Shown piece by piece: positions 1-11,936 of a stretch of DNA of 11,936 nucleotides. The position numbers and the translations under genes are program-made. Source of the DNA: an uncultured Dermabacter sp. (lineage in GTDB: Bacteria > Actinomycetota > Actinomycetes > Actinomycetales > Dermabacteraceae); the NCBI GenBank assembly GCA_947252755.1, contig CAMXWV010000017.1:1-11936 (forward strand). Direction: 5' to 3'. Under the pieces are notes generated by a model. The model saw only the letters and a program-made list of their open reading frames with translations, did not search any database and was not told where the DNA came from. How positions within the stretch are numbered: the stretch's first letter is position 1; each line of letters starts with the position of its first letter.

Positions 1-107
1 CCTAAACCAGCGGCGTGCACAACTGGAGAAGAACCCGCCCGATTCACCCCTATCAGCCACGGATCGAGCAGTCTAACCACACTTGTGCACGCCACGGGCC
101 TAAGCCG

Positions 108-135
108 CGGGCGCGGCCCGAAACCGGGCGCGCCA
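108..135 (-). terminator. Imperfect GC-rich hairpin downstream of ptsI (possible terminator, no U-tract)
   Basis: gcgcggcccg-aaac-cgggcgcgcc at 111-134. The gcccg/cgggc core stem has a bulged outer GC extension. It lies about 20-45 nt downstream of the ptsI stop on the minus strand. Confidence 0.25.
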
Positions 136-151
136 CCGCCGCGGCGTCAGC

Positions 152-1870
152 TCAGAGCCCGAGCTCCTCCAGAACCGGCAGCCTCTCGCGAACTGCTGCT
201 TTCGCTTGCGCCGCGGTCGGTGCGGTGACGGCAACCCGAGCCAGCTCTCGGCACTCTTCCAGTGTCACGGTGGACAGCACCCGGGCCACTGCCGGCAGCA
301 GGCGCGGCGTCATGGACAGCGAGTTCACGCCCAGGCCCACTAGCACGCACGCCAGCGCCGGATCCCCCGCGGACTCACCGCACACGCCCACGGGCTTGTT
401 CGCTTCAGCACCGAATGCGTCAGGGTCCCCTCCGGCAACCCGAGCACCGGTCGCGGTGGCGCCCACGAGCGCAAGCACCGCGGGCTGCCACGGATCGTTG
501 AGCTTCGCGAGGGAGCCGAGCATGCGGTCCGCAGCCATGGTGTACTGCGTGAGGTCATTGGTGCCGATGGAGGCGAAGTCCGCCACTGTCATCAGGTGGT
601 CACTGGTCAGCGCGGAGCTCGGGGTCTCTACCATGATGCCGGCGCGCTGCACACCCGCGGCGCGGGCCATGTCGATGAAGTCCTCGGTGTCCTCCAGCGT
701 GGAGATCATCGGCGCCATCACCCACGGCTCTGCCTCGGACTGCTCCGTGGCTCGACGAATCGCCTCCAGCTGGTTCTCCAGAACGGAACGCTTCTCCCAA
801 GAGGTGCGGTAGGCGCGGATGCCGAGCGCGGGGTTCGGCTCTTCCGCGTCGGTAAGGAACGGCAGCGGCTTGTCGGCGCCGGCGTCGATGGTGCGGATGG
901 TGACCTTCTTGCCGGGGAAGTGCTTGAGCACTTCCGCGTATGCCTGGGCCTGTTCCTCCACGCTCGGCTCCTCATCCCGGTCCAGGAAGAGGAACTCGGT
1001 GCGGAACAGGCCTACACCGTCGGCGTTTGCGGCCGCGGCGGCTTCAGCGTCCTGAGCGTTGCCCACGTTCGCCAGCAGCGGCATGGTTGTTCCACACTTC
1101 AGCTGCGCGCCGCCGCCGTCGTAGGTGAGGGGATTCTTCTGCAGCTCGTACCAGGCGTCAGCGAGCCCGCGCTCACGCTCACCGATTTCGGTGGTGACGA
1201 TTCCGGCTGCCCCATCCACGAACACCTCGGTGCCGTTGGGGATCTGGTCCACGCCCTTGGCTGCCACGATCGCAGGCAAGCCCAGTTGGCGGGCCAGAAT
1301 CGCAGTGTGGGACTGGGGGCCGCCGTCGGAGGTGATGAGCGCGGAGACGATCGTGGGATCGAGCGTGGCGGTGTCCGCGGGGGCAAGGTCGATCGCGGCG
1401 AGCACGAACCGTTCGGCGGAGTCGGGGATGCCGGGGGCGTCTTCGCCGCGCAGGTGCGCCACGATGCGGGCGCGCACGTCCTTCACGTCAGCGGCGCGCT
1501 CAGCCATGTACCCGCCAAGACCTTCAAGCATGGTGGCCACCTGGTCGCCGGCCTCCCAAACGGCCCGCTCAGGCGTTTTGTTCTCGCTGCGCACCAGGCT
1601 TTCGGCGGTGGTGGTGAGAGTGGGATCGGCGGCCATCTGAGCGGTGGCCTCCAGCACTGCCTTCCCGTCGCCGGTGGCGCGTTCGGCGCGCTTTTCAAGA
1701 GCATGCTTGACTGCGGCGGCGGAGGCAGCGATGCGGGCGGCTTCAGCCTCCGCATCAGCCCCGGCTGGAAGGCGGTCCGACGCGTTCGGCTCCGCAATCG
1801 GCGGCGCCATCACCAGCACGCGGTCCACCACGCGGCCCGGGCTCACTGCTACTCCGTTGAATTCCGTCAT
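152..1870 (-). CDS. ptsI: Phosphoenolpyruvate-protein phosphotransferase (PTS enzyme I)
   Basis: 572-aa ORF. It carries the enzyme I phosphohistidine region GGPQSHTAILAR and the PEP-utilising C-terminal domain motif GTNDLTQYTMAADR. RBS AAGGAGA lies 7 nt upstream of the ATG at 1870 (read on the minus strand). Confidence 0.93.
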   Translation of the reverse strand: MTEFNGVAVSPGRVVDRVLVMAPPIAEPNASDRLPAGADAEAEAARIAASAAAVKHALEKRAERATGDGKAVLEATAQMAADPTLTTTAESLVRSENKTPERAVWEAGDQVATMLEGLGGYMAERAADVKDVRARIVAHLRGEDAPGIPDSAERFVLAAIDLAPADTATLDPTIVSALITSDGGPQSHTAILARQLGLPAIVAAKGVDQIPNGTEVFVDGAAGIVTTEIGERERGLADAWYELQKNPLTYDGGGAQLKCGTTMPLLANVGNAQDAEAAAAANADGVGLFRTEFLFLDRDEEPSVEEQAQAYAEVLKHFPGKKVTIRTIDAGADKPLPFLTDAEEPNPALGIRAYRTSWEKRSVLENQLEAIRRATEQSEAEPWVMAPMISTLEDTEDFIDMARAAGVQRAGIMVETPSSALTSDHLMTVADFASIGTNDLTQYTMAADRMLGSLAKLNDPWQPAVLALVGATATGARVAGGDPDAFGAEANKPVGVCGESAGDPALACVLVGLGVNSLSMTPRLLPAVARVLSTVTLEECRELARVAVTAPTAAQAKAAVRERLPVLEELGL

Positions 1871-2054
1871 CGGGCATTCTCCTTAAGTCGTCTGTCTTAG
1901 ATCGTACCGACGGGTCCACGGGACTCCCCGAAGATTTCGGGCACTGGGCGCGCTATTGTTGATGCGGCGAGGTGCCATTGCGCGGCTCGCCGCACAAGCC
2001 CCTGCGGGCCGTGGCCCGCTCGGGAGCCGCTGCCTCTGCCGAAGGTTCTCATCG

Positions 2055-3650
2055 ATGCCCTCATTCGATCCGTCCCAGTCCAGCGTCACCGGTCAGCAGA
2101 CCGCGCAGTCCGCGTCGGCGCAGGGCACTCTCCCCGGTTTGGATGCCGCCGCCGGCTCTCCGCGACGCATCGGGTTCGATCGGGAGAAGTACATTCGGCT
2201 GCAGTCCCAGCACATCCATCAGCGACGCACCCAGATCGGCGGCAAACTGTATCTGGAGATGGGCGGGAAGCTGTTCGATGACATGCACGCGTCGCGGGTG
2301 CTTCCGGGCTTCACCCCGGATAACAAGATCGTCATGTTGGAGGAGCTGAAGGACGAGCTGGAGATCGTCATCGCGGTCAATGCGAAGGATCTGGAGCGCA
2401 CCAAGGTCCGCGCGGACTTCGGCATCACCTATGAGGAGGAGTCGCTGCGGCTGGTGGATGTGTTCCGCGATCGCGGGTTCCTGGTGCAGAACATTGTGCT
2501 CACCCAGATGGATGATGACAATCGCGCTGCCCGCGCTTTCAAGAGCCGTCTTGAGCGTCTGGGTTTGACGGTGCACCGGCACCGCACGATTCCCGGCTAC
2601 CCGGCGGATACGGCGCGCGTCGTCTCGCCGCAGGGCTTCGGCCGCAACGACTGGGTTGAGACCGAACGGGACCTGATCGTGGTGACTGCGCCGGGCCCCG
2701 GTTCCGGGAAGCTCGCCACGTGCCTGTCGCAGGTGTATAACGATCATCAGCGCGGCATTGCGTCCAGCTACGCGAAGTTCGAAACGTTTCCCATCTGGAA
2801 TCTGCCGCTCGACCACCCGGTTAACCTCGCGTATGAGGCGGCCACGGCGGATCTTGATGACGTCAATATGATCGATCCGCTGCACCTTGCCGCCTACAAC
2901 GAGCTGGCGGTGAACTACAACCGAGACGTTGAAGTGTTTCCGCTGCTCAAGGTGTTGCTGCAGCAGATGCTCGGCTCCTGCCCGTACGAATCCCCCACGG
3001 ATATGGGCGTGAACATGGTGGGCATGTGCATCTCTGATGACGACGCGTGCCGCTACGCCGCGAAGCAGGAGATCATCCGCCGCTATTTCAAGGCGCTGGT
3101 GGCGGAGAAGCGCGATGAGCTGGACAGTGACGTGTCCGAGAAGATCGCAATCATCATGGGCAAGGCGGGCGTGAACCGCGCGGATCGGCCCGTGGTGCTT
3201 CCGGCGCTGGAGACTGCCCGACGCACGCGCGGTCCGGCTTCGGCTATCGAACTGGCGGACGGCACCATCATCACCGGAAAGACCTCCGAGCTGCTCGGTG
3301 CGAGCTCCGCAATGCTGCTCAATGCGCTGAAGCACCTGGCAGGACTGTCGGATGACGCCCTGCTGCTCGCCCCGGAGGCGATCAAACCGATTCAGACACT
3401 GAAGGTGGACCATCTGGGGTCTCGTAATCCGCGTCTGCACACTGATGAGGTGCTGATTGCGCTGAGCGTATCGGCCGCGTCAGATGAGCGGGCGAAGGCT
3501 GCTCTGGATCAGCTGCAAAACCTGCGCGGCTGCGATGTGCACACCACCACGATCCTGGGAACAGTGGACGAGGGCATTTTCCGAGCGCTCGGCGTGGAGG
3601 TGACGAGCGAGCCGGAGTTCCAGGTAAAGCGCATGTTCCGTAAGCGCTGA
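2055..3650 (+). CDS. UPF0371 / DUF1846 family protein (conserved, function unknown)
   Basis: ORF 1956..3650. The family-typical N-terminus [17 protein letters not shown] begins about 33 aa after the ATG at 2055 (GAAGG 9 nt upstream), so the 2055 start is preferred over 1956. The ~530-aa length fits the family. Confidence 0.75.
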
Positions 3651-3688
3651 GGATTGGGGCTGTGGTGGTCTCAGCCCTGCGTACCGTC

Positions 3689-3716
3689 GGCGCCTAACGT
3701 TGGCGCCCTTCTTTTG
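3689..3716 (+). terminator. Rho-independent terminator of the UPF0371 gene
   Basis: ggcgcc-taacgtt-ggcgcc hairpin (3689-3707) followed by cttcttttg T-tract. A second small hairpin gggctg/cagccc lies at 3657-3677. Confidence 0.6.
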
Positions 3717-3718
3717 CG

Positions 3719-3857
3719 CAGAGCGTGGGAATGGTGCGGTAAAACCGTGGAATACCGCACGGTTCTCACGTTCTATGCGCCCGGAAGGAGGGACCCGTGG
3801 CCTCCTGTTGCTATGCCCCCCCTACCCCGGTAGAACGTGGGTTTGGTGCGGTAAAAC
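3719..3857. repeat. Tandem ~111-113-bp repeat array, left part (partial unit 3719-3736, full unit 3737-3849, first 8 bp of next unit 3850-3857)
   Basis: Unit starts ggtaaaacc..gaataccgcac.. and ends ..ggtaga(a/g)cgtgggttt(g/a)gtgc. The 3737-3849 unit is about 92-93% identical to 11761-11870. Confidence 0.8.
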
Positions 3858-3911
3858 GGCTCTTCACGAACGAGGGTGTAGCGCGGGTCTGAACCCTCCG
3901 GCTTCGAGCAG
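3858..3911 (-). mobile_element. 54-bp remnant of an ISL3-family IS right end in inverted orientation (terminal IR plus last 16 codons of transposase)
   Basis: 3858-3911 equals the reverse complement of 11707-11760 (the intact IS right end) with 2 mismatches. Its reverse complement encodes LLEAGGFRPALHPRS*, against LLEAGGSRPALHPRS* for the intact transposase C-terminus. Homology stops abruptly at 3912. Confidence 0.85.
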
Positions 3912-4338
3912 CGACCGACCCTGCAGACGCTGAGTACCAGATCCGTAAACTCGAGAACGCCTCCAACACCATCAGTGACGAGGTCTTCCACTACTGGAGC
4001 CAGAACACTGAGCTAAGCGTGAAACTCACGCTCATCCCAGGACCCGGGCCATCAACGTCTCGTGCAACGAGCGAACAAGAGCCCTTCCTACAGGTCCGTG
4101 TCCAAAACGACCGGCACCGTGTCACCGTCCCGTTCAATGAACGTTCGCGCGGCTTCGTGTGGTTCTTCTCGTTCCTAGCTTATTTCTCCCAGATCGAGGA
4201 CGAGTCCTCCTACCCGTTAATCCTGCTGCTTGATGAGCCTGGGCTGAGTCTGCATGCCACGGCTCAGCATGACCTCCTGCGATTCATCCGGGAACGCCTC
4301 GCTCCCGAGCACCAAGTGCTCTTCACCACGCACTCGCC
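3912..4338 (+). pseudogene. Internal fragment of an AAA_21/AAA_15-type (ABC/OLD/RecF-like) ATPase
   Basis: The open frame has no start codon and no Walker A. It contains SRGFVWFFSFLAYF (degenerate signature/Q-region), Walker B ILLLDEPGLSLH, and H-loop VLFTTHSP as its last recognisable residues. GC is roughly mid-50s % (hand count of three 60-bp lines), against about 70% in flanking genes. It uses tta/cta/ctt codons. Confidence 0.6.
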
Positions 4339-5211
4339 CTGCGTAACGTCATCGGCTCGATGGACCTCGAGCAGACGCTCACCAGCCGCGACCAGATCAA
4401 TGGCCAGCTGCGCGGCGTCCTCGACGAGGCCACCGGCCGCTGGGGCATCCGCGTCAACCGGGTGGAGCTCAAGGCGATCGACCCGCCGGCCAGCGTCCAG
4501 GGCTCGATGGAGCAGCAGATGCGCGCCGAGCGTGACCGCCGTGCGGCGATCCTCACGGCCGAGGGTGTCAAGCAGTCCCAGATCCTCACCGCCGAGGGTG
4601 AGAAGCAGGCCGCGATCCTCCAGGCCCAGGGTGAGTCGCGCGCCATCCTCCAGGTCTTCGACGCGATCCACCGCGGCAAGCCCGACTCCAAGCTGCTCGC
4701 CTACCAGTACCTGCAGATGCTGCCCGAGCTGGCCAACGGCACCTCGGACAAGCTGTGGGTCATCCCCACCGAGTTCACCGCGGCGCTGGGCACCATCGCC
4801 CGCGGCTTCGGCGGCTCGCCCGGCGGTAGCGGCCCGTCCGACGACGACTCCGGACCCACGCCCGAGGTCGACTTCGGCCCGGGTGGCCCGATGATGGCCT
4901 CCGGGCTGGCCGAGACCAGTCTGCAGGACCCCGACCAGGCGCTTGCCCAGGCCCGCAGCGAGGCGCAGCAGGCGACCTCCGAGGCGACCGCGGCCGGTGA
5001 GCGCTCCGACAGCCCGTTCTCCCGCTCGGCCGAGCGCGGGCAGCGGCCCGCCGAGAGCGAGCGGCGCGACACCGGACGGACCCGGCCGCGGGTCCGCCGA
5101 GCACCGCGGTGCCGCCGGCGCCCGACGCGCCTCCGCCCGCCCGGCCGGAAGGCGACGAGGAGCGGCCGGGTCAGTAGGGCACTGGCCCGCCTCGCCACCT
5201 GCGACCGGTGA
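4336..5211 (+). pseudogene. 5'-truncated SPFH/band-7 (stomatin-like) protein fragment
   Basis: The frame opens with no start and reads ALRNVIGSMDLEQTLTSRDQINGQLRGVLDEATGRWGIRVNRVELKAIDPP (SPFH core C-terminal half), then the stomatin-type coiled coil AILTAEGVKQSQILTAEGEKQAAILQAQGE. The N-terminal membrane anchor and first half of the SPFH domain are absent. The distal Arg-rich tail is of doubtful frame. Confidence 0.7.
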
Positions 5212-5249
5212 ACCTGGCCCATCCAAGGACAGAGTTCACCGGTCGCAGG
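5198..5249. repeat. 16-bp perfect inverted repeat with 20-nt spacer between convergent SPFH fragment and lacI-family gene
   Basis: cctgcgaccggtgaac (5198-5213) is the exact reverse complement of gttcaccggtcgcagg (5234-5249). The SPFH-frame stop TGA (5209-5211) lies inside the left arm. Confidence 0.7.
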
Positions 5250-5270
5250 CGTCGGGGCAGTCGGCGTGGA

Positions 5271-6281
5271 TCAGCCGCCGCCGTCACCCAGACTTGCCCG
5301 CGGGTGCAGTATCAGCTCTGACGCAGGTCCGGGTGCTCCGGCGAGGGTGCTGCCGAGGCTCTTCGTGACGGCGAGCATGAGGCGGGCGCAGATCACGTCG
5401 AGGTCGAAGGAGATCGTCGCGAGCTCCGGTTGTGCGAGTCGCCCGGCGGGGATGTCGTCGACGCCGATGACCGCGAGCCGTGCGGGCACCTCGATGCCGG
5501 CGGCCCGGGCAGCAGTGAGCACGGCCAGAGCGACGTCGTCGTTGTGGGCGCACACCCCGGTGACACCGGCCTCGACGCACGAGCGGAGCTCCGCCGTCGA
5601 TACCGCGCTACTCGGGGACCCCAGGATCAGGGGATCGGGCAGCACCAGCTCGCGGCAGACGGCCGTCACCCCGGAGAGGCGCCCCTCGGCCAGGCCGGTG
5701 AGGCGAGGGTCCGCCGGGAGCGCGTACGCGAGCCGCTGACGTCCGGCGGCCACCATCGCCTCGGCCTGGGCGCGTCCGACCGCCGCAGTCGGAACGGGCA
5801 CGTCGTGGACTTCGTCGGCGTCCCGTGCCGATGAGTGCGCGACCGTCCACCGCGCCACGGGGATCCGTAGCTCACGGATCGGGTCGATGCGCTCGGGGTC
5901 GAGGTCGACGAGGACGATGACGGCTGCCGGCAGCAGCTCCCGGCAGAGAGCACCGAGGTCGTCACCTGCGAACGAGAGCTTGGCGAGCAGGTGCAGGCCG
6001 GCGCGTGAGCAGGCCGTGGTCAGTCGCTCGAGCAGCCCGACGAGGACGGGGCCCACCGGGACGTCGGGGACGACGAGCAGCACGAGGTCGCTGCGTCCCC
6101 GGGCGAGCGCGCGGGCGGCACCCGATCGGACGTAGCCGAGCTCGGCGGCGGCGGCACGCACGCGTTCGCGCGTGTGTTCCGGGATGCTCTGACCGGGCTT
6201 GTCGTTGAGGACGTAGCTCACGGTTGCCGTGGATACGCCGGTTGCGGAGGCGACGTCCGCCAACGTCGGGCGTCGCACCAC
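5271..6281 (-). CDS. LacI-family transcriptional regulator
   Basis: N-terminal HTH RPTLADVASATGVSTATVSYVLN and periplasmic-binding-fold body. The likely start is GTG at 6281 (V-V-R-R-P-T-L...) with GGAGG 7 nt upstream (6289-6293), rather than the ATG at 6350. Confidence 0.85.
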   Translation of the reverse strand: MVRRPTLADVASATGVSTATVSYVLNDKPGQSIPEHTRERVRAAAAELGYVRSGAARALARGRSDLVLLVVPDVPVGPVLVGLLERLTTACSRAGLHLLAKLSFAGDDLGALCRELLPAAVIVLVDLDPERIDPIRELRIPVARWTVAHSSARDADEVHDVPVPTAAVGRAQAEAMVAAGRQRLAYALPADPRLTGLAEGRLSGVTAVCRELVLPDPLILGSPSSAVSTAELRSCVEAGVTGVCAHNDDVALAVLTAARAAGIEVPARLAVIGVDDIPAGRLAQPELATISFDLDVICARLMLAVTKSLGSTLAGAPGPASELILHPRASLGDGGG

Positions 6282-6329
6282 TGCCTCACCTCCGTGACGA
6301 CGATCACGAACCGGATGAACTGCCGACCC

Positions 6330-6372
6330 TTGATGGGCCCGCGACTCCATCCTATATTAGTTATGCGCATAA
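6330..6372 (+). promoter_or_regulatory. Putative promoter (-35 TTGATG 6330-6335, 17-nt spacer, -10 TATATT 6353-6358) and 12-bp palindrome TTATGCGCATAA (6361-6372), a candidate LacI-family operator
   Basis: Perfect palindrome with a central GCGC like symmetric lac operators. It sits 3 nt downstream of the -10 hexamer, over the predicted transcription start, 36 nt upstream of the glucosidase ATG, in the divergent regulator/operon intergenic region. Confidence 0.45.
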
Positions 6373-6407
6373 GTGCAGCGCTTAAGTTTCCAATGGAGGA
6401 GATTGGC

Positions 6408-8144
6408 ATGCCCACGAACAGCCGTGCCTGGTGGCACGAGGCGGTTGTCTACCAGATCTACGTGCGTTCCTTCGCCGACTCCGACGGCGACGGTCTCGGG
6501 GACCTCGCGGGTGTCCGCTCGCGCCTCGACCATCTCGAGAGCCTCGGGGTCGACGTCATCTGGCTCACGCCCTTCTACCCCTCGCCCATGGCGGACAACG
6601 GGTACGACGTCAGTGACTACGAGGCGGTGGACCCGCGCTTCGGTTCCGAGGGGGACCTCGACGATCTCATCGCCGACATCCACCGCCGTGGTATGAGGGT
6701 GATCATCGATGTGGTCCTCAACCACACGTCGATCGACCATCCATGGTTCGTGGAGTCGCGCAGCACGCGCTCGTCGTCTCGACGCGACTGGTACATCTGG
6801 CGGCCCCCGAGGGACGGGGTGGAACCAGGCACGCCCGGCGCGGAGCCGACGAACTGGCTCGGCTTCTTCGCCCAGCCGACGTGGACGTACGACGAGGAGA
6901 GCGGTGAGTACTACCTTCACCTCTTCTCCCCGGAGCAGCCCGACCTCAACTGGGAGAACCAGGAGGTTCGCCAAGCGCTCTACGCGATGCTGCGCCGCTG
7001 GCTCGCCCGCGGCGTCGACGGGTTCCGCCTCGATGTCATCAACCTCATCTCCAAGAGGTATCCGCTGCAGGACGTGCCGACGCCGCACTCGAGCCACTAC
7101 GGTGATGCCTCCTCGCAGTACACCTGCGGGCCACGGATGCTCGAGTTCCTCGACGAGCTGCGGGACCAGGTGTTCGACACCGCCGAGAAGACCCTGCTCA
7201 CGGTGGGCGAGATGCCGGGGGCGACCGTCAAGGACGGGCTCGCCGTCACCGGCGGTGAGCGCCCCCGCCTCAGCATGATCTTCACGTTCGAGCACATGGA
7301 CGTCGATCACGCGCCCGGCTGGGGCGGACGGTACGAGCCGAGGCCGTTCGACCTGCTCGCGCTGAAATCGACCATGGCACGCTGGCAGGAAGGACTGGGC
7401 CGTTCCGGGTGGAACAGTCTCTACTTCGGCAACCACGACCAGGCCCGCGTCGCCTCCCGCTTCGGTTCCCGGTCGCCGGCGCACGCGGTCGCCTCGGCGA
7501 AGATGCTCGCCACGGTTCTCCACCTGCACCGTGGGACGCCATACGTCTACCAGGGCGACGAGATCGGCATGCGCAACTACCCGTTCGCGAGCATCGAGCA
7601 GTTCGCCGACATCGATGCGCACAACTCGTGGGCGTACGGCCGGGCACTGGGTGTCCTGCCGGAACGGCTCCTTGCGGGCCTGCGCCAGAACGGCCGCGAC
7701 AACGCTCGCACGCCCATGCAGTGGGACGCGTCGGAGCACGGGGGATTCACCACCGGTACTCCGTGGCTGCCGCTCAACCCGAACACCTCCGAGGTCAACG
7801 TCGAGGCTCAGATCGACGACGCGGACTCGGTCCTCGCCCACTACCGACGCCTCATCGAGCTGCGTCACAGCAGTGACATCGTGGTCTTCGGTGACTACCG
7901 CCTCCTCGCCCGCGACCACGAGTACCTGTACGCCTTCGAGCGGACGCTCGGCGACGAGCGATGGATCGTGGTCGCGAACTTCTCCGACGAGGAGCTCGAT
8001 GTCGCTGCGGCTCTCGGCGGCGCCGTCGGTGCCGCCGAGCTGATACTTGGGACTCACCACGAGCCGCCCGAGGGTGCGGTCCTGCAGCGGCTGCGCCCCT
8101 GGGAGGCCCAGATCTGCCGTGTGCTCAAGGGGAGTGAGCAGTGA
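6408..8144 (+). CDS. GH13 alpha-glucosidase / oligo-1,6-glucosidase-type hydrolase
   Basis: 578 aa from ATG 6408 (GGAGGA 7 nt upstream). GH13 conserved regions: DVVLNHTS, GFRLDVINLIS (catalytic Asp), GEMPG (acid/base Glu), FGNHDQ, plus QPDLNWEN. The ORF-track start at 6174 is an upstream extension overlapping the regulator gene. Confidence 0.9.
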   Translation: MPTNSRAWWHEAVVYQIYVRSFADSDGDGLGDLAGVRSRLDHLESLGVDVIWLTPFYPSPMADNGYDVSDYEAVDPRFGSEGDLDDLIADIHRRGMRVIIDVVLNHTSIDHPWFVESRSTRSSSRRDWYIWRPPRDGVEPGTPGAEPTNWLGFFAQPTWTYDEESGEYYLHLFSPEQPDLNWENQEVRQALYAMLRRWLARGVDGFRLDVINLISKRYPLQDVPTPHSSHYGDASSQYTCGPRMLEFLDELRDQVFDTAEKTLLTVGEMPGATVKDGLAVTGGERPRLSMIFTFEHMDVDHAPGWGGRYEPRPFDLLALKSTMARWQEGLGRSGWNSLYFGNHDQARVASRFGSRSPAHAVASAKMLATVLHLHRGTPYVYQGDEIGMRNYPFASIEQFADIDAHNSWAYGRALGVLPERLLAGLRQNGRDNARTPMQWDASEHGGFTTGTPWLPLNPNTSEVNVEAQIDDADSVLAHYRRLIELRHSSDIVVFGDYRLLARDHEYLYAFERTLGDERWIVVANFSDEELDVAAALGGAVGAAELILGTHHEPPEGAVLQRLRPWEAQICRVLKGSEQ

Positions 8145-9583
8145 TGGCATCGACCCCCTCGGCATCGGTGAGCAAGAGGCTCGTCCTGGTCACGGTGACC
8201 GCAGCGCTGGGCTTCTTCCTCTTCGGCTACGACACGGCCGTCATCAACGGGGCTATCGACGCGCTCGCCGACCACTACGGCCTCGGCAGTGGCCTCAAGG
8301 GCTTCGCGGTCTCCTCTGCCCTGCTCGGTTGCGTCATCGGCGCGTGGTTCGCCGGCCCGCTGTCGAACCGCGTCGGCCGGGTGCCAGTCATGCTCACCTC
8401 GTCCGTCCTCTTCCTCGCGTCGGCGATAGGTACTGGCCTCGCGTTCGGCATCACCGATCTCATCGTGTGGCGGGTCGTCGGCGGTCTCGGAGTCGGCGCC
8501 GCCTCCGTCATCGCCCCCACCTACATCGCCGAGATCTCTCCAGCACACATGCGCGGGCGCCTCGTCTCGATGCAGGGCCTCGCGGGTGTCACCGGCATCG
8601 CGGTCTCGCTCTTCGTCGATGCCGGCCTGGCGTGGCAGGCCGGCGGTGCCGCGAACCCCCTCTGGTTCGACCTGCCCGCGTGGCGGTGGATGTTCATCGT
8701 CGAGGCGGTTCCGGCCATCGCCTACGGCGTCGCCGCACTGAGGGTGCCGGAGTCACCGCGATACCTCGTCGGCCTCGGGCGCGACGCGGACGCCGAGCAC
8801 GTGCTGAGGACCTGCACGGGCCTGGCCGACCCACGCGCGAAGATCGAGGAGATCCGTGGCTCGCTGCAGACGGACCGCCGCGCATCGCTACGCGATCTCG
8901 CGGGTCGGGCGTTCGGGCTCAAGCCGATCGTGTGGGTAGGCATCCTCGTCGCGGCCGCCCAGCAGTTCGTCGGTATCAACGTCATCTTCTACTACTCGAC
9001 CACCCTCTGGCGCTCGGTCGGATTCGGTGAGTCGAACGCACTGCTCATCACCGGGATCACCTCCCTCATCAACATTGGCGCGACGGTGCTCTCAATCCTG
9101 CTCATCGACAAGGTTGGCAGGCGCCTGCTCATGCTCTCCGGGTCACTCGGCATGGCGGTGACCCTCGGGGTCATGGCACTCGCGTTCTCGCAGGCGATCA
9201 CCACCGTCGCTGGTGAGGTCCTGCTGCCGGGCGTCTGGGGTGTGGTCGCCCTCGTCAGCGCGAACCTGTTCGTCGCCTTCTTCGGCGCGACCTGGGGCTC
9301 GGTCATGTGGGTGGTGCTCGGCGAGATGTTCCCCAACCGAATCCGTGCCGGGGCGATGGCCGTCTCGACCGCCGTGAACTGGCTGTCGAACTTCGCCATC
9401 TCGACCACCTTCCCCGTGATGGCGGCGATCTCGTTGACCGGCTCGTACAGTTTCTACGCACTCAGCGCCCTCGCGTCGTTCTTCCTCGTGAAGCACCTCG
9501 TCAAGGAGACGGCGGGCATCGAGCTCGAGGACATGGACAGTCAGCTCCGACACACGCCTGCCCCGGATCACGGCAATCGGTAG
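8144..9583 (+). CDS. MFS sugar-porter-family transporter
   Basis: 479 aa. It has the sugar-porter N-terminal FGYDTAVINGA, PESPRYL, and 12-TM-like hydrophobic periodicity. The ATG 8144-8146 overlaps the glucosidase stop TGA 8142-8144 (TGATG coupling), with GGGGAG 9 nt upstream. Confidence 0.85.
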   Translation: MASTPSASVSKRLVLVTVTAALGFFLFGYDTAVINGAIDALADHYGLGSGLKGFAVSSALLGCVIGAWFAGPLSNRVGRVPVMLTSSVLFLASAIGTGLAFGITDLIVWRVVGGLGVGAASVIAPTYIAEISPAHMRGRLVSMQGLAGVTGIAVSLFVDAGLAWQAGGAANPLWFDLPAWRWMFIVEAVPAIAYGVAALRVPESPRYLVGLGRDADAEHVLRTCTGLADPRAKIEEIRGSLQTDRRASLRDLAGRAFGLKPIVWVGILVAAAQQFVGINVIFYYSTTLWRSVGFGESNALLITGITSLINIGATVLSILLIDKVGRRLLMLSGSLGMAVTLGVMALAFSQAITTVAGEVLLPGVWGVVALVSANLFVAFFGATWGSVMWVVLGEMFPNRIRAGAMAVSTAVNWLSNFAISTTFPVMAAISLTGSYSFYALSALASFFLVKHLVKETAGIELEDMDSQLRHTPAPDHGNR

Positions 9584-9608
9584 CCGGGCGAACCCCACCG
9601 CACCGATC

Positions 9609-9645
9609 GGTGTGCTCCGTCGGTCCACGACCGACGGAGCACACC
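9609..9645 (+). terminator. 15-bp perfect-stem hairpin 26 nt after the transporter stop (terminator-like, no T-tract)
   Basis: ggtgtgctccgtcgg-tccacga-ccgacggagcacacc. Confidence 0.5.
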
Positions 9646-9666
9646 TGTGGCCGTTCGGGTGAGGGC

Positions 9667-9867
9667 ATGCTCGTCACCGCCACCGTCGATGACCTGGCAC
9701 GGGAGGCCGACGCGCGCGCCGCGGTGGACAACCTGGCCGCGACCGCCCGGCTGCGGCTGCGCCCGGTGTACGGCTCGCAGGACTCCGCCTTCGCGGCCGC
9801 CCTGCCGCTGGGCCTGGTGCTGCCCAAGCACATCAAGATCCCGGCCGAGCTGAGGGAGAAGCTGTGA
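9667..9867 (+). CDS. Small hypothetical protein (66 aa), translationally coupled to the downstream ATPase fragment
   Basis: ATG at 9667 after GGTGAGGG. Its stop TGA (9865-9867) overlaps the GTG start (9864) of the next ORF as GTGA. It is Ala/Arg/Leu-rich with no recognisable domain. Confidence 0.4.
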   Translation: MLVTATVDDLAREADARAAVDNLAATARLRLRPVYGSQDSAFAAALPLGLVLPKHIKIPAELREKL

Positions 9868-10250
9868 CCACGACAGACCAGACCCAGCAGCGGACCGGCC
9901 GGGGAACACGAGCCGGCAAGCCAGCGCCGGTGCGGCCGCGGCGCCCGCCGATGCGCGGCTGGCTCGGGCGCGGGCGCGGGCAGTCCTTCTACCTGCAGAC
10001 CCCGGCCGAGTGGCGCGGCACGACCATGCAGGTCTGCGGTCTGTGGCCCTTCGCCGTCGGCGCCGGCACCCCGATGGTCGGTGTCCCGTTCGGGCGCCAC
10101 ATCCACACCGGCGCCACCCTGTGCTGCGACCCCATCTCCTGGTACCAGCGCGCCAACCTCATCGGGAACCCCTCGGTGTTCTTCCTCGGCCGCCCCGGCC
10201 TGGGCAAGACCTCGGCGGTCATGCGCACGGCCGTGGGCCTCAGCGGCTAA
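9864..10250 (+). pseudogene. N-terminal fragment (128 aa) of a conjugation/DNA-transfer-type P-loop ATPase
   Basis: Basic Pro/Arg-rich N-terminus, then FYLQTPAEWRGTTMQVCGLWPF...VFFLGRPGLGKTS (Walker A GxxGxGKT). The ORF stops 15 codons after Walker A. No Walker B or later motifs are present before the IS at 10335. Confidence 0.5.
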
Positions 10251-10382
10251 GGGGTCATCCCGCTCGTGCGTAGCTCCTGCGAAAGTACGAGGCACCGGTA
10301 CCAAAGTCCCATTTTCAAGGGCGAACACTTTCCCGGCTCTTCGCGAACGAGGGTGTAGTCGGTTGAGTGCGTCGGTGGCCGG

Positions 10383-10460
10383 GTAGGGGTCGAGGTCTTT
10401 CGGATGATGGAAGTTCTTCACGCTTGCCATCTCGAAAGACCTCGACGTGCTCCACCCTAC
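10383..10460 (+). promoter_or_regulatory. Long imperfect stem-loop in the IS leader ending at the transposase start codon
   Basis: gtcgaggtctttcg (10389-10402) is the exact reverse complement of cgaaagacctcgac (10433-10446). The outer gtaggg/ccctac extension and an inner gatggaag/cttgccatc stem add to it. The GTG start (10447) is immediately 3' of the right arm, and there is no obvious SD. Confidence 0.35.
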
Positions 10461-11754
10461 TTTCGCGACCCCTGACTTGACCACGTTCTGCCGGCTCGAC
10501 GAGCTCGGGCTCGTCGCCGTCGGCCAGCTGATCGAGCCGGATCGGGCCACGATCGAATGCCGCGTCGTCGAGGACGACCCGTGGTGTCGGAAGTGCGGTG
10601 TCGAGGGCGTGCCGCGGGACACGGTCACGCGTCGACTGGCGCACGAGCCGTTCGGGCACCGGCCGACGACCCTGCTGGTGCGGGTGCGCCGGTACCGGTG
10701 CGGACACTGCCGGCGCACGTGGCGGCAGGACATGACGCGGGCAGCGGCGCCGCGTGCGAAGATCTCCCGCGGCGGCCTGGAGTGGGCGCTGCGGGGCATC
10801 GTCATCGACCACCTCACCGTGACCCGTGTCGCCGCGGGCCTGGGGGTGTCCTGGAGCGCCGCGAACACTGCGGTGCTCGCGGAGGGCAAGCGTCGACTGA
10901 TCGACGATCCCGCCCGGTTCGACGCGGTCACCACGATCGGTGTCGACGAGCACGTCTGGCGGCACACCCGCCTCGGCGACAAGTACGTGACCGTGATCAT
11001 CGACCTCACCCCGGCCCGCGAGAAGACAGGACCCGCGCGGCTGCTGGACATGGTCAAGGGTCTTTCGAAGGCGGTGTTCAAGCAGTGGCTCGCCGCCCGC
11101 CCTGCGGACTGGGCGAAGCGGATCGAGGTGGTCGCGATGGACGGCTTCGCAGGCTTCAAGACCGCCGCCGCCGAAGAACTCCCCGACGCCGTCCCCGTCA
11201 TGGACCCGTTCCACGTGGTCCGCCTCGCCGGCGACGCGCTGGATGTCTGCCGGCGTCGGGTCCAGCAAGACACCACCGGTCACCGCGGGCTCAAGGGCGA
11301 CCCGCTCTACAAAGCCCGCCGCACCCTGCACACCGGGGCGAGCCTGCTCACCGACCGGCAGCGGGCACGCCTGGACGCAGTGTTCGCGAGCGAGGAGCAC
11401 GTCGAAGTCGAGGCGACCTGGGGCATCTACCAGCGCATCGTCGCGGCCTACCGGGAGCCCGACAAGAAGAAAGCGAAGGCGATGGTGCAGGAGGTAATCG
11501 CTGCGATCAGCAGCGGCGTTCCCGCGGCGCTCGTCGAGGTCCGCAAGCTCGGCCGGACCATGAAGCAGCGGGCGGGCGACATCCTCGCGTTCTTCGACCG
11601 CCCCGGCACCAGCAACGGCCCGACCGAGGCGATCAACGGCCGGCTCGAACACCTCCGCGGCTCCGCACTCGGATTCCGCAACCTCACCCACTACATCGCA
11701 CGCAGTCTGCTCGAAGCCGGAGGGTCCAGACCCGCACTACACCCTCGTTCGTGA
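10447..11754 (+). CDS. ISL3-family transposase
   Basis: 435 aa. N-terminal zinc-finger-like Cys pairs (CRKCG...CGHCRR), DDE-type core (GVDEH, VAMDGFAGF, DPFHVV) and C-terminal NGPTEAINGRLEHL. The stop TGA lies within the right IR. Confidence 0.9.
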   Translation: MLHPTFATPDLTTFCRLDELGLVAVGQLIEPDRATIECRVVEDDPWCRKCGVEGVPRDTVTRRLAHEPFGHRPTTLLVRVRRYRCGHCRRTWRQDMTRAAAPRAKISRGGLEWALRGIVIDHLTVTRVAAGLGVSWSAANTAVLAEGKRRLIDDPARFDAVTTIGVDEHVWRHTRLGDKYVTVIIDLTPAREKTGPARLLDMVKGLSKAVFKQWLAARPADWAKRIEVVAMDGFAGFKTAAAEELPDAVPVMDPFHVVRLAGDALDVCRRRVQQDTTGHRGLKGDPLYKARRTLHTGASLLTDRQRARLDAVFASEEHVEVEATWGIYQRIVAAYREPDKKKAKAMVQEVIAAISSGVPAALVEVRKLGRTMKQRAGDILAFFDRPGTSNGPTEAINGRLEHLRGSALGFRNLTHYIARSLLEAGGSRPALHPRS

Positions 11755-11760
11755 AGAGCC

Positions 11761-11936
11761 GGTAAAACCCGGGAATACCGCACGGTTCTCACGCTCTATG
11801 CGCGCGGAAGGAGGGACCCGTGGTCTCCTGTTGCTATGCCCCCTACCCCGGTAGAGCGTGGGTTTAGTGCGGTAAAACCACGGAATACTGCACTATTCTC
11901 ACGTTCTGCGTCCGCTACGGACACGAGCCGCCCCTT
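11761..11936. repeat. Tandem ~111-bp repeat array, right part (unit 11761-11870, degenerate partial unit 11871-11936, window end)
   Basis: 11761-11870 aligns to 3737-3849 with about 8 substitutions and a 2-bp C-run indel. 11871-11911 matches the first ~40 bp of the unit and then diverges. Confidence 0.8.

What the first reader, a model, noticed from the sequence alone, without database searches (positions are those of the whole stretch)
3893..4345. Three abrupt junctions in 450 bp: IS end | low-GC AAA ATPase core fragment | SPFH gene lacking its 5' half
The frame carrying the ATPase motifs opens at 3893 inside IS-derived sequence. It changes from IS homology to ATPase-like sequence exactly at 3912. 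It then reads through a degenerate signature segment, Walker B (ILLLDEPGLSLH) and H-loop (LFTTHSP). Within about 3 nt of the H-loop (about 4336-4339), a different frame begins that encodes the second half of an SPFH/stomatin domain with no start codon. Composition shifts from roughly mid-50s % GC to about 72% at the same point (hand-counted 60-bp lines). The ATPase fragment has no Walker A and no C-terminal effector domain. AAA_21/AAA_15 ATPases with this DEPxxxLH...TTHSP architecture are the ATPase components of OLD-family, Gabija GajA, Septu PtuA, PARIS AriA and several abortive-infection systems. That makes this fragment plausibly the scar of a defence gene destroyed by successive IS-mediated rearrangements. 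Neither fragment can be functional as it stands.
Basis: partly seen in the sequence, partly recalled or inferred. Interest (0 to 1): 0.6.

Follow-up and report, generated by a model that had tools for sequence, protein, structure and literature searches.

The report
Dead defence-gene scrap inside a transposon
The three junctions are real: a 144-codon middle piece of a dead OLD-type anti-phage nuclease gene is joined out of frame to the back 70% of an SPFH membrane-protein gene, and both are junk cargo in a 7.9-kb ISL3 transposon, which is ordinary genome decay.

Summary

- **ISL3 remnant, 3858-3911:** a 54-nt end of an ISL3 element, an inverted copy of 11707-11760.
- **ATPase fragment, 3908/3912-4340:** residues 250-393 of a class-1 OLD-family nuclease. 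It keeps the signature, Walker B, D-loop and H-loop. It has no Walker A and no Toprim domain.
- **SPFH fragment, from 4339:** it starts at residue ~125, out of frame with the ATPase. GC rises from 58% to 74%.

Bases 3858-11760 (7,903 bp) form a composite-transposon-like unit: the IS remnant, 6.4 kb of passenger DNA and an intact 1,426-bp ISL3. The unit is flanked by 8-bp direct repeats (GGTAAAAC). It sits in a palindromic repeat downstream of a DUF1846 gene, and related strains have the empty site.

The OLD|SPFH junction is the oldest event. It contains no IS sequence and is identical in every related contig that spans it. The 5' boundary differs between contigs:
- codon 1, an open reading frame (L103);
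- codon ~178, fused to an HmaB pseudogene (L003);
- codon 250, at the ISL3 remnant (this window);
- codon ~368, at an IS1380-family element (L101).

The "defence-gene scar" reading holds. "Successive IS-mediated rearrangements" holds only for the 5' side. Interest is low.

The parts
3720..3774 (.). P1: complete 55-nt imperfect palindrome of the intergenic repeat array downstream of the DUF1846 gene.
   Evidence: the repeat finder family D1. Aligned with the arrays of L088 and L091.
3833..3857 (.). Left half of palindrome P2, the insertion target. Its last 8 nt (3850-3857, GGTAAAAC) are the left target-site duplication.
   Evidence: Joining it to 11769 onward rebuilds a complete P element that aligns with the empty sites.
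3858..3911 (-). 54-nt remnant of a second ISL3 copy. It is the right terminal inverted repeat plus inner sequence, with the outer end facing left.
   Evidence: 96% identical to the reverse complement of 11707-11760. Identity ends at 3911.
3908..3911 (.). GCAG microhomology shared by the IS and the parental OLD gene at the deletion joint.
   Evidence: Three-way comparison of the window, the IS and L003.
3912..4340 (+). Internal fragment of a class-1 OLD-family nuclease gene, residues 250-393 in L103 numbering. It has the signature region, Walker B, D-loop His and H-loop. It lacks a start codon, Walker A and the Toprim domain.
   Evidence: Pfam AAA_21/AAA_15; PADLOC AriA/Old/GajA/PtuA models; alignments A1 and A2; PDB 6P74 at E=5e-13 for the family profile; L103 numbering.
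4339..5211 (+). 3' ~70% of an SPFH/Band_7 gene, from residue ~125. It is out of frame with the ATPase fragment. Gene callers report ORF 4360-5211 (283 aa). It lacks the transmembrane helix and the first half of the SPFH domain.
5189..5258 (.). 25-nt-arm inverted repeat between the convergent SPFH fragment and LacI gene. It is a likely bidirectional terminator and is absent from L003, which has a 143-bp deletion here.
   Evidence: Inverted repeat I7; gap in the window/L003 alignment.
5271..6281 (-). LacI-family regulator, passenger gene with an uninterrupted ORF.
   Evidence: Pfam LacI and Peripla_BP_3; gene call in L086.
6408..8144 (+). GH13 alpha-glucosidase or trehalose-6-phosphate-hydrolase-like enzyme, passenger gene.
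   Evidence: Pfam Alpha-amylase; NCBIfam PRK10933 at 566 bits against a cutoff of 535.
8144..9583 (+). MFS sugar transporter, passenger gene.
   Evidence: Pfam Sugar_tr, E=1.7e-103.
9647..10250 (+). Two conjugation-gene fragments: the 3' end of an SCO6880-family gene and the 5' part of an ATP/GTP-binding protein gene. A short low-GC tail follows up to 10334.
   Evidence: 78% DNA identity to annotated genes on Miniimonas and Paenarthrobacter plasmids (H27 and H28); GC 56% for 10255-10334.
10335..11760 (+). Intact 1,426-bp ISL3-family insertion sequence, with ends GGCTCTTC...GAAGAGCC and transposase at 10447-11754. Its own flanks (ACTTTCCC and GGTAAAAC) are not a duplication.
   Evidence: Pfam DDE_Tnp_ISL3; NCBIfam transpos_ISL3 at 354.7 bits against a cutoff of 180; inverted repeats; flanks.
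11761..11797 (.). Right target-site duplication GGTAAAAC (11761-11768) and the right half of palindrome P2.
11853..11907 (.). P3: complete palindrome. The sequence after it continues as in the empty-site contigs.

Best explanation
Bases 3893-4345 hold two non-functional gene remnants that are passive cargo of a mobile element.

**Shown: order of events**
- A stand-alone class-1 OLD-family nuclease gene, carried on a conjugative or defence island, first lost everything after its H-loop.
- The cause was an illegitimate deletion with a 2-nt overlap. It joined OLD codon 393, out of frame, to codon ~125 of an SPFH gene.
- That joint is identical in every related contig that spans it.
- The 5' side was then eroded independently in different lineages.

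**Shown: this window**
- Here the 5' boundary is a 4-nt-microhomology deletion between position 54 of an ISL3 copy and OLD codon 250.
- The remaining 54-nt ISL3 end and an intact ISL3 6.4 kb downstream both present their right inverted repeats outward.
- They are flanked by an 8-bp duplication of the target.
- Related strains have the uninterrupted target.

**Inferred**
- The 7.9-kb block moved as a composite transposon. It inserted into the loop of a palindromic repeat downstream of the DUF1846 gene. The block comprises the OLD scrap, the SPFH scrap, the LacI/GH13/MFS sugar cassette and two conjugation-gene scraps.
- Whether the left IS copy was truncated before or after transposition is not determined.
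- The fragments themselves do nothing. There is no start codon or Walker A for the ATPase, no membrane anchor or first half-domain for SPFH, and no in-frame fusion.
For: - **Junction anatomy:**
- **Family assignments:**
- **Full-length relatives:** homologues are ~641 aa with Walker A at residues 31-38 and a Toprim-like LLVEGPGD motif at residue 447, both missing here. The closest solved relative is 6P74, the Thermus scotoductus class-1 OLD, at E=5e-13.
- **Age of the OLD|SPFH junction:** contig L003 matches window 3908-5109 and 5253-10334 with no ISL3 at either boundary, and it already has the OLD|SPFH joint. L103 carries OLD codons 1-393 as an open frame joined to SPFH at the same base. L101/L102 carry an IS1380-family element at window position 4256.
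- **Transposon evidence:** the direct repeats GGTAAAAC lie at 3850-3857 and 11761-11768. The intact IS alone has no duplication. The window with 3858-11768 removed aligns end to end with the DUF1846-downstream regions of L088 and L091. A related 1,426-bp ISL3 on a Microbacterium plasmid has a perfect 8-bp duplication at the same GGCTCTTC/GAAGAGCC ends.
- **Reproducibility:** the arrangement recurs in independent assemblies.
- **Decay signs:** L003 has a nonsense codon in its ATPase fragment. The window and L003 differ at 2 synonymous and 3 non-synonymous codons in the fragment. The window's SPFH has an 11-codon in-frame deletion.
Against: - No copy of the unit with two complete ISL3 elements was found, and no donor site carrying ISL3 was found. 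En-bloc transposition therefore rests on the duplication, the empty sites and the two outward-facing right ends.
- The right side crosses a 1.4-kb repeat. Short-read assemblies could misjoin there. Only the window and L087 span it, and L086 stops 141 nt into the IS.
- The host organism is unidentified and no complete genome was available. Copy number, and the fate of the original locus in this strain, are unknown.
- The differences between the window and L003 are too few to prove neutral evolution of the fragments.
Confidence: 0.8

Rival explanations
1. A functional defence gene at this spot was destroyed in place by successive IS-mediated rearrangements, and both junctions are IS scars.
For: The 5' junction abuts ISL3 sequence. 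Another lineage has an IS1380-family element at a different 5' boundary. The parental gene is OLD-family and island-borne.
Against: The OLD|SPFH junction has no IS sequence and is shared with contigs that lack ISL3. The ISL3 joint is internal to the IS and has microhomology, so it is not a transposase product. The gene had lost its Toprim half before any IS event seen here. The fragment arrived at this locus as transposon cargo, since relatives have empty sites.
Confidence: 0.12
2. Two independent ISL3 insertions into palindromic P elements, followed by recombination or deletion, produced the arrangement. There was no en-bloc transposition of a 7.9-kb unit.
For: Both ISL3 insertion sites seen lie at palindromes: the P loop here, and the foot of a hairpin at L003 9562-9581. 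Site preference could therefore generate identical 8-bp flanks twice.
Against: Both halves of one P element abut right-end inverted repeats. A single insertion, or homologous recombination or inversion between copies, cannot give this. The two flanks are contiguous in L088 and L091 and rebuild exactly one P element with one 8-bp duplication.
Confidence: 0.08
3. Assembly artefact: the junctions are chimeric joins in a metagenome assembly.
For: The sequence is known only from metagenome and Logan contigs, and GC changes abruptly.
Against: The OLD|SPFH joint occurs in at least eight contigs from different projects: L003, L004, L086, L087, L094 and L101-L103. The 54-nt IS remnant is shorter than the k=141 apparently used for L086 (the contig is named k141_48107), and it is bridged identically in L086 and L087.
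Confidence: 0.02
4. The remnants are expressed and useful, for example an N-terminally truncated SPFH protein from ATG 4360 or a Walker-A-less ATPase peptide acting as a decoy or regulator.
For: ORF 4360-5211 is open and is called as a gene in several assemblies. The first ~100 residues of the fragment are identical to Georgenia SPFH.
Against: It has no transmembrane helix and no first half of the SPFH domain. The ATPase piece has no start codon and no Walker A, and it runs out of frame into SPFH DNA. No sigma-70-like promoter was found in 3600-5300. L003 has a nonsense codon in the ATPase piece and different indels.
Confidence: 0.03

Closest known systems
Class 1 OLD-family nucleases (phage P2 Old; Thermus scotoductus OLD, PDB 6P74; PMC7049728)
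   Same: The parental gene family has an N-terminal ABC-type ATPase with Walker A, a signature-like RSxG, Walker B LLDEP, a D-loop His and an H-loop THSP. It also has a C-terminal Toprim-like region with conserved E450, D507 and D543/E545/D546. The genes stand alone on plasmids and islands. 6P74 is the best solved match.
   Different: The window holds only residues 250-393, with no Walker A, no Toprim domain, no start and no stop. Pfam OLD-like_TOPRIM is below threshold even in the full-length relative (20.0 against 23.2 bits). No NCBIfam model reaches its cutoff.
Composite (compound) transposons bounded by inverted IS copies, such as Tn5 and Tn10 (own knowledge), including those with one degraded IS
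   Same: Two IS ends of the same type face outward. Passenger DNA lies between them. The target-site duplication has the length typical of this IS group, and an empty site exists in relatives.
   Different: One bounding copy is reduced to 54 nt. Mobility has not been shown experimentally. No second insertion of the same unit was found.
ISL3-family insertion sequences
   Same: It has a DDE_Tnp_ISL3 transposase with an N-terminal zinc ribbon and ~25-nt terminal inverted repeats starting GGCTCTTC. It is 1,426 bp long. An 8-bp duplication is seen for the unit here and for a related copy on a Microbacterium plasmid.
   Different: The intact copy here has no duplication of its own, because it is one arm of a larger unit.
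SPFH/Band 7 (stomatin, HflK/C-like) membrane scaffold proteins
   Same: Residues ~125 to the end match actinobacterial SPFH proteins at 68-83% identity (80-83% for the three Georgenia loci).
   Different: It lacks the N-terminal transmembrane helix and about 120 residues of the domain. It also has an 11-residue internal deletion.
Gabija GajA, Septu/retron PtuA, PARIS AriA
   Same: They share the AAA_15/AAA_21 ATPase core, and their PADLOC models hit the fragment.
   Different: No GajB-like helicase, PtuB or AriB partner gene was seen next to any of six full-length homologues. The best full-length PADLOC model for the closest homologue (L001) is Old; Old and AriA swap rank for L002.

Membership tests
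OLD-family nuclease, class 1 | N-terminal ABC ATPase with a Walker A (P-loop) motif | tested here: not met
   The window fragment starts at residue 250. Walker A (GKNESGKT) is at residues 31-38 in L103 and L001. The parental gene meets this feature; the window does not.
OLD-family nuclease, class 1 | Walker B, D-loop and H-loop of the ABC fold | tested here: met
   LILLLDEP, GLSLH and TTHSP are present and invariant in family alignment A2. Pfam AAA_21 and AAA_15 are above their cutoffs.
OLD-family nuclease, class 1 | C-terminal Toprim nuclease domain | tested here: not met
   It is absent from the window, because the frame switches to SPFH after THSP. In full-length relatives the region aligns with the 6P74 Toprim domain, but Pfam OLD-like_TOPRIM is sub-threshold at 20.0 against 23.2 bits.
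OLD-family nuclease, class 1 | Stand-alone gene with no UvrD-like helicase immediately downstream (PMC7049728) | tested here: met
   Six full-length homologues on plasmids have unrelated neighbours and no helicase. This was tested on relatives, not on the window.
Gabija (GajA), Septu (PtuA) or PARIS (AriA) | Adjacent partner gene (GajB helicase, PtuB HNH or AriB) | tested here: not met
   There is no such partner in the window, in L003 or L103, or beside the six full-length homologues.
SPFH/Band_7 | Complete SPFH domain preceded by a membrane anchor | tested here: not met
   Only Band_7 profile positions 98-174 of 176 are matched. Intact orthologues have about 124 more N-terminal residues, including a hydrophobic helix.
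ISL3-family insertion sequence (10335-11760) | DDE_Tnp_ISL3 transposase plus terminal inverted repeats | tested here: met
   Pfam gives 183.4 bits. NCBIfam transpos_ISL3 gives 354.7 bits against a cutoff of 180. The inverted repeats are 10335-10359 and 11736-11760.
Composite transposon (3858-11760) | Target-site duplication of the length made by the bounding IS, flanking the whole unit | tested here: met
   GGTAAAAC lies at 3850-3857 and 11761-11768. A related ISL3 element (83% DNA identity) makes an 8-bp duplication.
Composite transposon (3858-11760) | Uninterrupted (empty) target site in related genomes | tested here: met
   L088 and L091 align end to end with the window once the unit is removed.
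Composite transposon (3858-11760) | A complete IS copy at each end | tested here: not met
   The left copy is a 54-nt remnant that keeps only the terminal inverted repeat region.
Composite transposon (3858-11760) | Demonstrated mobility, meaning a second independent insertion or an experimental transposition | not testable with these tools
   Only one insertion site was found in the available contigs.

The most novel reading that the evidence does not exclude
The 54-nt ISL3 end remnant was already truncated when the unit moved. If so, one intact ISL3 plus a bare terminal repeat was enough to mobilise 6.4 kb of chromosomal or island DNA, including a sugar-utilisation cassette, into a palindromic intergenic repeat. 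Taken together, the four allelic states (OLD codon 1, ~178, 250 and ~368, with one fixed 3' joint) would then be a natural time series of stepwise defence-gene erosion across co-circulating strains.
Probability: 0.3. Interest if true: 0.35.

Novelty: new member of a known kind. Interest (0 to 1): 0.2.

Why it matters
The practical value is for annotation. The 283-aa "Band_7" ORF and any "AAA ATPase" call here are pseudogene pieces and should not be counted as a defence system or an SPFH protein. The abrupt GC change marks old deletion joints, not a recent transfer boundary.

The locus is also a small, clean example of two known processes. Defence-island genes decay by repeated truncation, and an IS can carry such debris to a new chromosomal site along with intact-looking cargo. 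Nothing here challenges current understanding.

Tried and rejected
- **Rfam and tRNA scans of the window:** nothing found.
- **Source genome among GTDB representatives:** not found. The SPFH fragment reached only Georgenia and other Micrococcales at ≤88% identity, and none of them has the downstream LacI/GH13/MFS genes next to SPFH. The host stays unidentified.
- **Metagenome scan for the P2-left/ISL3 joint:** no match.
- **Megablast of the whole unit against plasmids:** only ISL3 copies and conjugation-gene pieces matched. No plasmid-borne copy of the unit was found.
- **NCBIfam:** no model reaches its cutoff for the ATPase fragment or its full-length relatives.
- **In-frame ATPase-SPFH fusion:** rejected. 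The frames differ, and ORF 4019-4894 is ATPase followed by out-of-frame SPFH DNA.
- **Frameshift in the SPFH C-terminal tail:** considered, but the tail is low-complexity and diverges between species, so no claim is made.
- **9-nt identity TCACCACGC:** the OLD and SPFH genes share this string just upstream of the joint. The actual joint lies 7-8 nt further on, so it was not the crossover point.
- **P palindromes as dispersed REP elements:** not shown. They were found only in this one intergenic array among the sequences held.
Full report
**1. What is in the window**

The window comes from a high-GC actinobacterium known only from metagenome-type assemblies. Its gene order is as follows:
- PTS enzyme I (152-1870, minus strand)
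- a DUF1846 gene (2055-3650)
- an intergenic array of 55-nt imperfect palindromes, here called P (P1 at 3720-3774)
- the finding region
- a LacI-family regulator (5271-6281, minus strand)
- a GH13 alpha-glucosidase-like gene (6408-8144)
- an MFS sugar transporter (8144-9583)
- two short conjugation-gene fragments (9647-10250)
- an intact ISL3-family insertion sequence (10335-11760, transposase at 10447-11754)
- more P sequence to the end of the window

No Rfam family and no tRNA was found.

**2. Check of the observation**

Every element was found.

- *Frame.* The ATPase frame opens at 3893, after a TGA.
- *IS end.* Bases 3858-3911 are 96% identical to the reverse complement of 11707-11760. They are therefore the right-hand end of an ISL3 copy, with its outer tip at 3858.
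- *IS to ATPase.* IS identity stops after 3911. Identity to the parental ATPase gene, as preserved in contigs L003 and L103, begins at 3908. The joint therefore carries 4 nt of microhomology, GCAG.
- *ATPase fragment.* The translated fragment passes the Pfam thresholds for AAA_21 and AAA_15 over the C-terminal part of those profiles. It contains RSRGF, LILLLDEP, GLSLH and TTHSP, all invariant in an alignment of six full-length relatives.
- *ATPase to SPFH.* SPFH homology (Band_7 profile positions 98-174 of 176) starts at 4339 with LRNVIGSM. In intact orthologues this is residue 125 of 454 (Georgenia sp. EYE_87, L008) or 123 of 390 (Occultella glacieicola, L011). ATPase homology can be followed to 4340. 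The overlap is therefore 2 nt (CT), and the two reading frames differ.
- *Composition.* GC is 58.3% for the ATPase piece and 73.8% for the SPFH piece. GC3 is 0.72 and 0.94 respectively.

**3. The parental ATPase**

A tblastn search of plasmids found full-length relatives of 641-654 aa at 45-67% identity. They occur in Arthrobacter, Streptomyces, Embleya, Caballeronia, Exiguobacterium, Rhodococcus and others. These proteins have:
- Walker A at residues 31-38;
- the motifs of the fragment at residues 324-389;
- a conserved LLVEGPGD plus acidic residues further on.

A profile of six of them finds the class-1 OLD nuclease of Thermus scotoductus (6P74) as the best solved relative. The E-value is 5e-13, and the match runs across the Walker B to Toprim region. 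The PADLOC "Old" model is the best full-length hit for the closest homologue, L001; for L002, AriA ranks marginally above Old.

Class-1 OLD genes are defined as an ABC ATPase plus Toprim domain in one stand-alone gene, with no downstream UvrD-like helicase (PMC7049728). The six gene neighbourhoods fit that definition. They show no conserved partner: the neighbours are integrases, recombinases, a TIR protein and a type I restriction gene.

Two caveats apply. Pfam OLD-like_TOPRIM is just below threshold in the relative (20.0 against 23.2 bits). No NCBIfam model reaches its cutoff.

**4. The fragments are older than the ISL3 event**

The protein search returned a 106-aa protein 96% identical to the fragment that extends further upstream (P0021). 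Its contig, L003, matches window 3908-5109 at 96% and 5253-10334 at 99.3%. L003 has no ISL3 at either boundary, yet it already has the OLD|SPFH joint.

In L003 the ATPase piece starts at about residue 178. There it is fused to a frameshifted HmaB (DUF1156 methylase) pseudogene. HmaA lies upstream, and a gene with HEPN_Swt1 and DUF499 domains, probably HmaC, lies 10 kb downstream (PADLOC gave no hit to the 149 residues available). The L003 ATPase piece also carries a TAA nonsense codon.

An exact-match scan for the 26-mer across the OLD|SPFH joint found three more contigs:
- **L103** has OLD codons 1-393 as one open frame, including GKNESGKT. It is preceded by a type IV coupling-protein C-terminus and a DUF4913 gene, and it is joined to SPFH at the same base.
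- **L101** has an IS1380-family element (DDE_Tnp_1_4) directly abutting the OLD sequence at window position 4256, codon ~368. L102 begins at the same point.

There is therefore one fixed 3' joint and four different 5' boundaries: codon 1, ~178, 250 and ~368. The simplest order is as follows. First, a deletion removed the Toprim half and the SPFH 5' half. Later, independent truncations occurred on the 5' side, two of which involve IS elements.

**5.

- The intact ISL3 has no target duplication of its own. Its flanks are ACTTTCCC and GGTAAAAC.
- The 8 nt left of the remnant (3850-3857) and the 8 nt right of the intact IS (11761-11768) are both GGTAAAAC.
- Both P half-sites abut right-end inverted repeats.
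- Removing 3858-11768 rebuilds a complete P element. The resulting sequence aligns end to end with the DUF1846-downstream regions of two related strains that lack the insert (L088 and L091, 92-95% identical). The alignment includes the sequence after the last P element.
- A related 1,426-bp ISL3 on a Microbacterium plasmid has the same GGCTCTTC/GAAGAGCC ends and a perfect 8-bp duplication.

Together these facts identify 3858-11760 (7,903 bp) as one insertion, made by a transposase acting on two outward-facing right ends. That is a composite transposon with inverted ISL3 arms, one arm now reduced to 54 nt.

Homologous recombination or inversion between IS copies cannot place right ends against both halves of one target. 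I therefore rank those models low.

The internal IS/OLD joint, with its 4-nt microhomology, is an illegitimate deletion. I cannot tell whether it happened before or after the move.

In L003 the right arm's insertion point lies at the foot of a perfect 8-bp-stem hairpin.

**6. Reliability of the assembly**

The same arrangement is present in L086 (100% over 10,475 nt, part of a 328-kb contig), in L087 (99.96% over the whole window) and in L094. The left junctions involve only 54 nt of repeat and are safe. The right side crosses the 1.4-kb IS and is spanned only in the window and in L087, so this is the weakest link.

**7. Function**

- *ATPase piece.* It has no start codon, no Walker A and no Toprim domain. 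It runs out of frame into SPFH DNA as far as a stop at 4892-4894.
- *SPFH piece.* It lacks the membrane helix and the first ~120 residues. It has also lost 11 codons through a slip between short repeats.
- *Promoters.* No sigma-70-like promoter was detected in 3600-5300.

I conclude that both are pseudogene remnants.

The LacI/GH13/MFS genes have uninterrupted ORFs. However, the window and L003 differ there by 18 non-synonymous and 5 synonymous changes, so even the cargo may be under weak constraint. Alternatively, the Logan contig may carry errors.

**8. Comparison with the known, and verdict**

Everything seen belongs to known categories: a class-1 OLD-like gene family, ISL3 and IS1380 elements, a compound transposon, and microhomology deletions. 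The specific transposon and the four-state erosion series have not, to my knowledge, been described. I therefore rate it a new member of a known kind, with low interest.

Its interpretation was right about the nature of the fragment. It was only half right about the cause.

Noticed in passing
window 3720-3774, 3833-3857 joined to 11761-11797, and 11853-11907; L088 11700-12000; L091 11700-11960: There is a tandem array of 55-nt imperfect palindromes (core GTGCGGTAAAACCnnGGAATACnGCAC) with spacers of roughly 55-130 nt downstream of the DUF1846 gene. Copy number is 3 in this strain and 2 in two relatives. No Rfam match was found and the function is unknown. It was seen only at this locus in the sequences held.
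   Followed up: partly
window 3857/3858; L003 9562-9581: Both ISL3 insertion points lie at palindromes: the loop of P2 here, and the 5' foot of the hairpin CCCCTGCGcggaCGCAGGGG in the donor-type contig. This may be a structural target preference, but there are only two data points.
   Followed up: partly
window 10447-11754: The ISL3 transposase belongs to a 90%-identity cluster of 639 sequences. Its named members come from Dermabacter hominis, Micrococcus, Rothia (Kocuria) kristinae, Brevibacterium, Dermacoccus and Kocuria. This suggests recent horizontal spread of one IS among actinobacteria, several of which are skin-associated genera (own knowledge).
   Followed up: no
window 9647-10334: There are more gene scraps: the 3' end of an SCO6880-family gene and the first ~128 codons of a conjugative ATP/GTP-binding protein gene. 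An 80-nt tail of 56% GC follows. They are also present in L003, so the passenger DNA is a mosaic of at least five pieces.
   Followed up: partly
L003 1-3030 and 11860-13448: L003 holds a disrupted Hma defence system. HmaA is followed by an HmaB gene broken by frameshifts and truncated at about profile position 600 of 967, where it is fused to the OLD fragment. About 10 kb downstream lie an IS3-family element, a DUF1016/YhcG nuclease gene (PADLOC PDC-S02) and a gene with HEPN_Swt1 and DUF499 domains (probably HmaC; PADLOC gave no hit to the 149 residues available).
   Followed up: partly
window 5271-9583 compared with L003 4502-8814: The LacI, GH13 and MFS genes differ between the two strains by 18 non-synonymous and 5 synonymous substitutions, close to the neutral expectation. 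This could mean relaxed selection on the 'intact' cargo, or errors in the Logan contig.
   Followed up: no
window ~4605-4620 and 5110-5252: The window lacks 33 bp (11 codons, ILRAEGQAQSA) of the SPFH coiled-coil repeat that L003 and Georgenia retain. L003 in turn lacks 143 bp that include the SPFH 3' end and the 25-nt-arm hairpin at 5189-5258.
   Followed up: partly
L101 (reverse complement) 581-2216: There is an IS1380-family element of about 1.6 kb with terminal repeats CCCTGATCCACCGG. It is flanked on both sides by TTCAG, although its left flank is a remnant of another (rve-type) transposase gene and not OLD sequence.
   Followed up: partly
window 10962-10974: The only five differences between the window and L087 are clustered in 13 nt inside the ISL3 transposase gene. 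This looks like variation between IS copies, or repeat collapse in one of the assemblies.
   Followed up: no
window 1-136; L087 763-1089: The first ~130 nt of the window recur twice more, at 87-97% identity, just upstream in the longer contigs, between the HPr and enzyme I genes. This is another local repeat family.
   Followed up: no
window 596-1900 (+), 6357-8165 (-), 9501-11276 (-), 10315-11691 (-): Long ORFs antisense to, or out of frame with, real genes have no Pfam hit. They are the usual spurious ORFs of high-GC DNA.
   Followed up: yes
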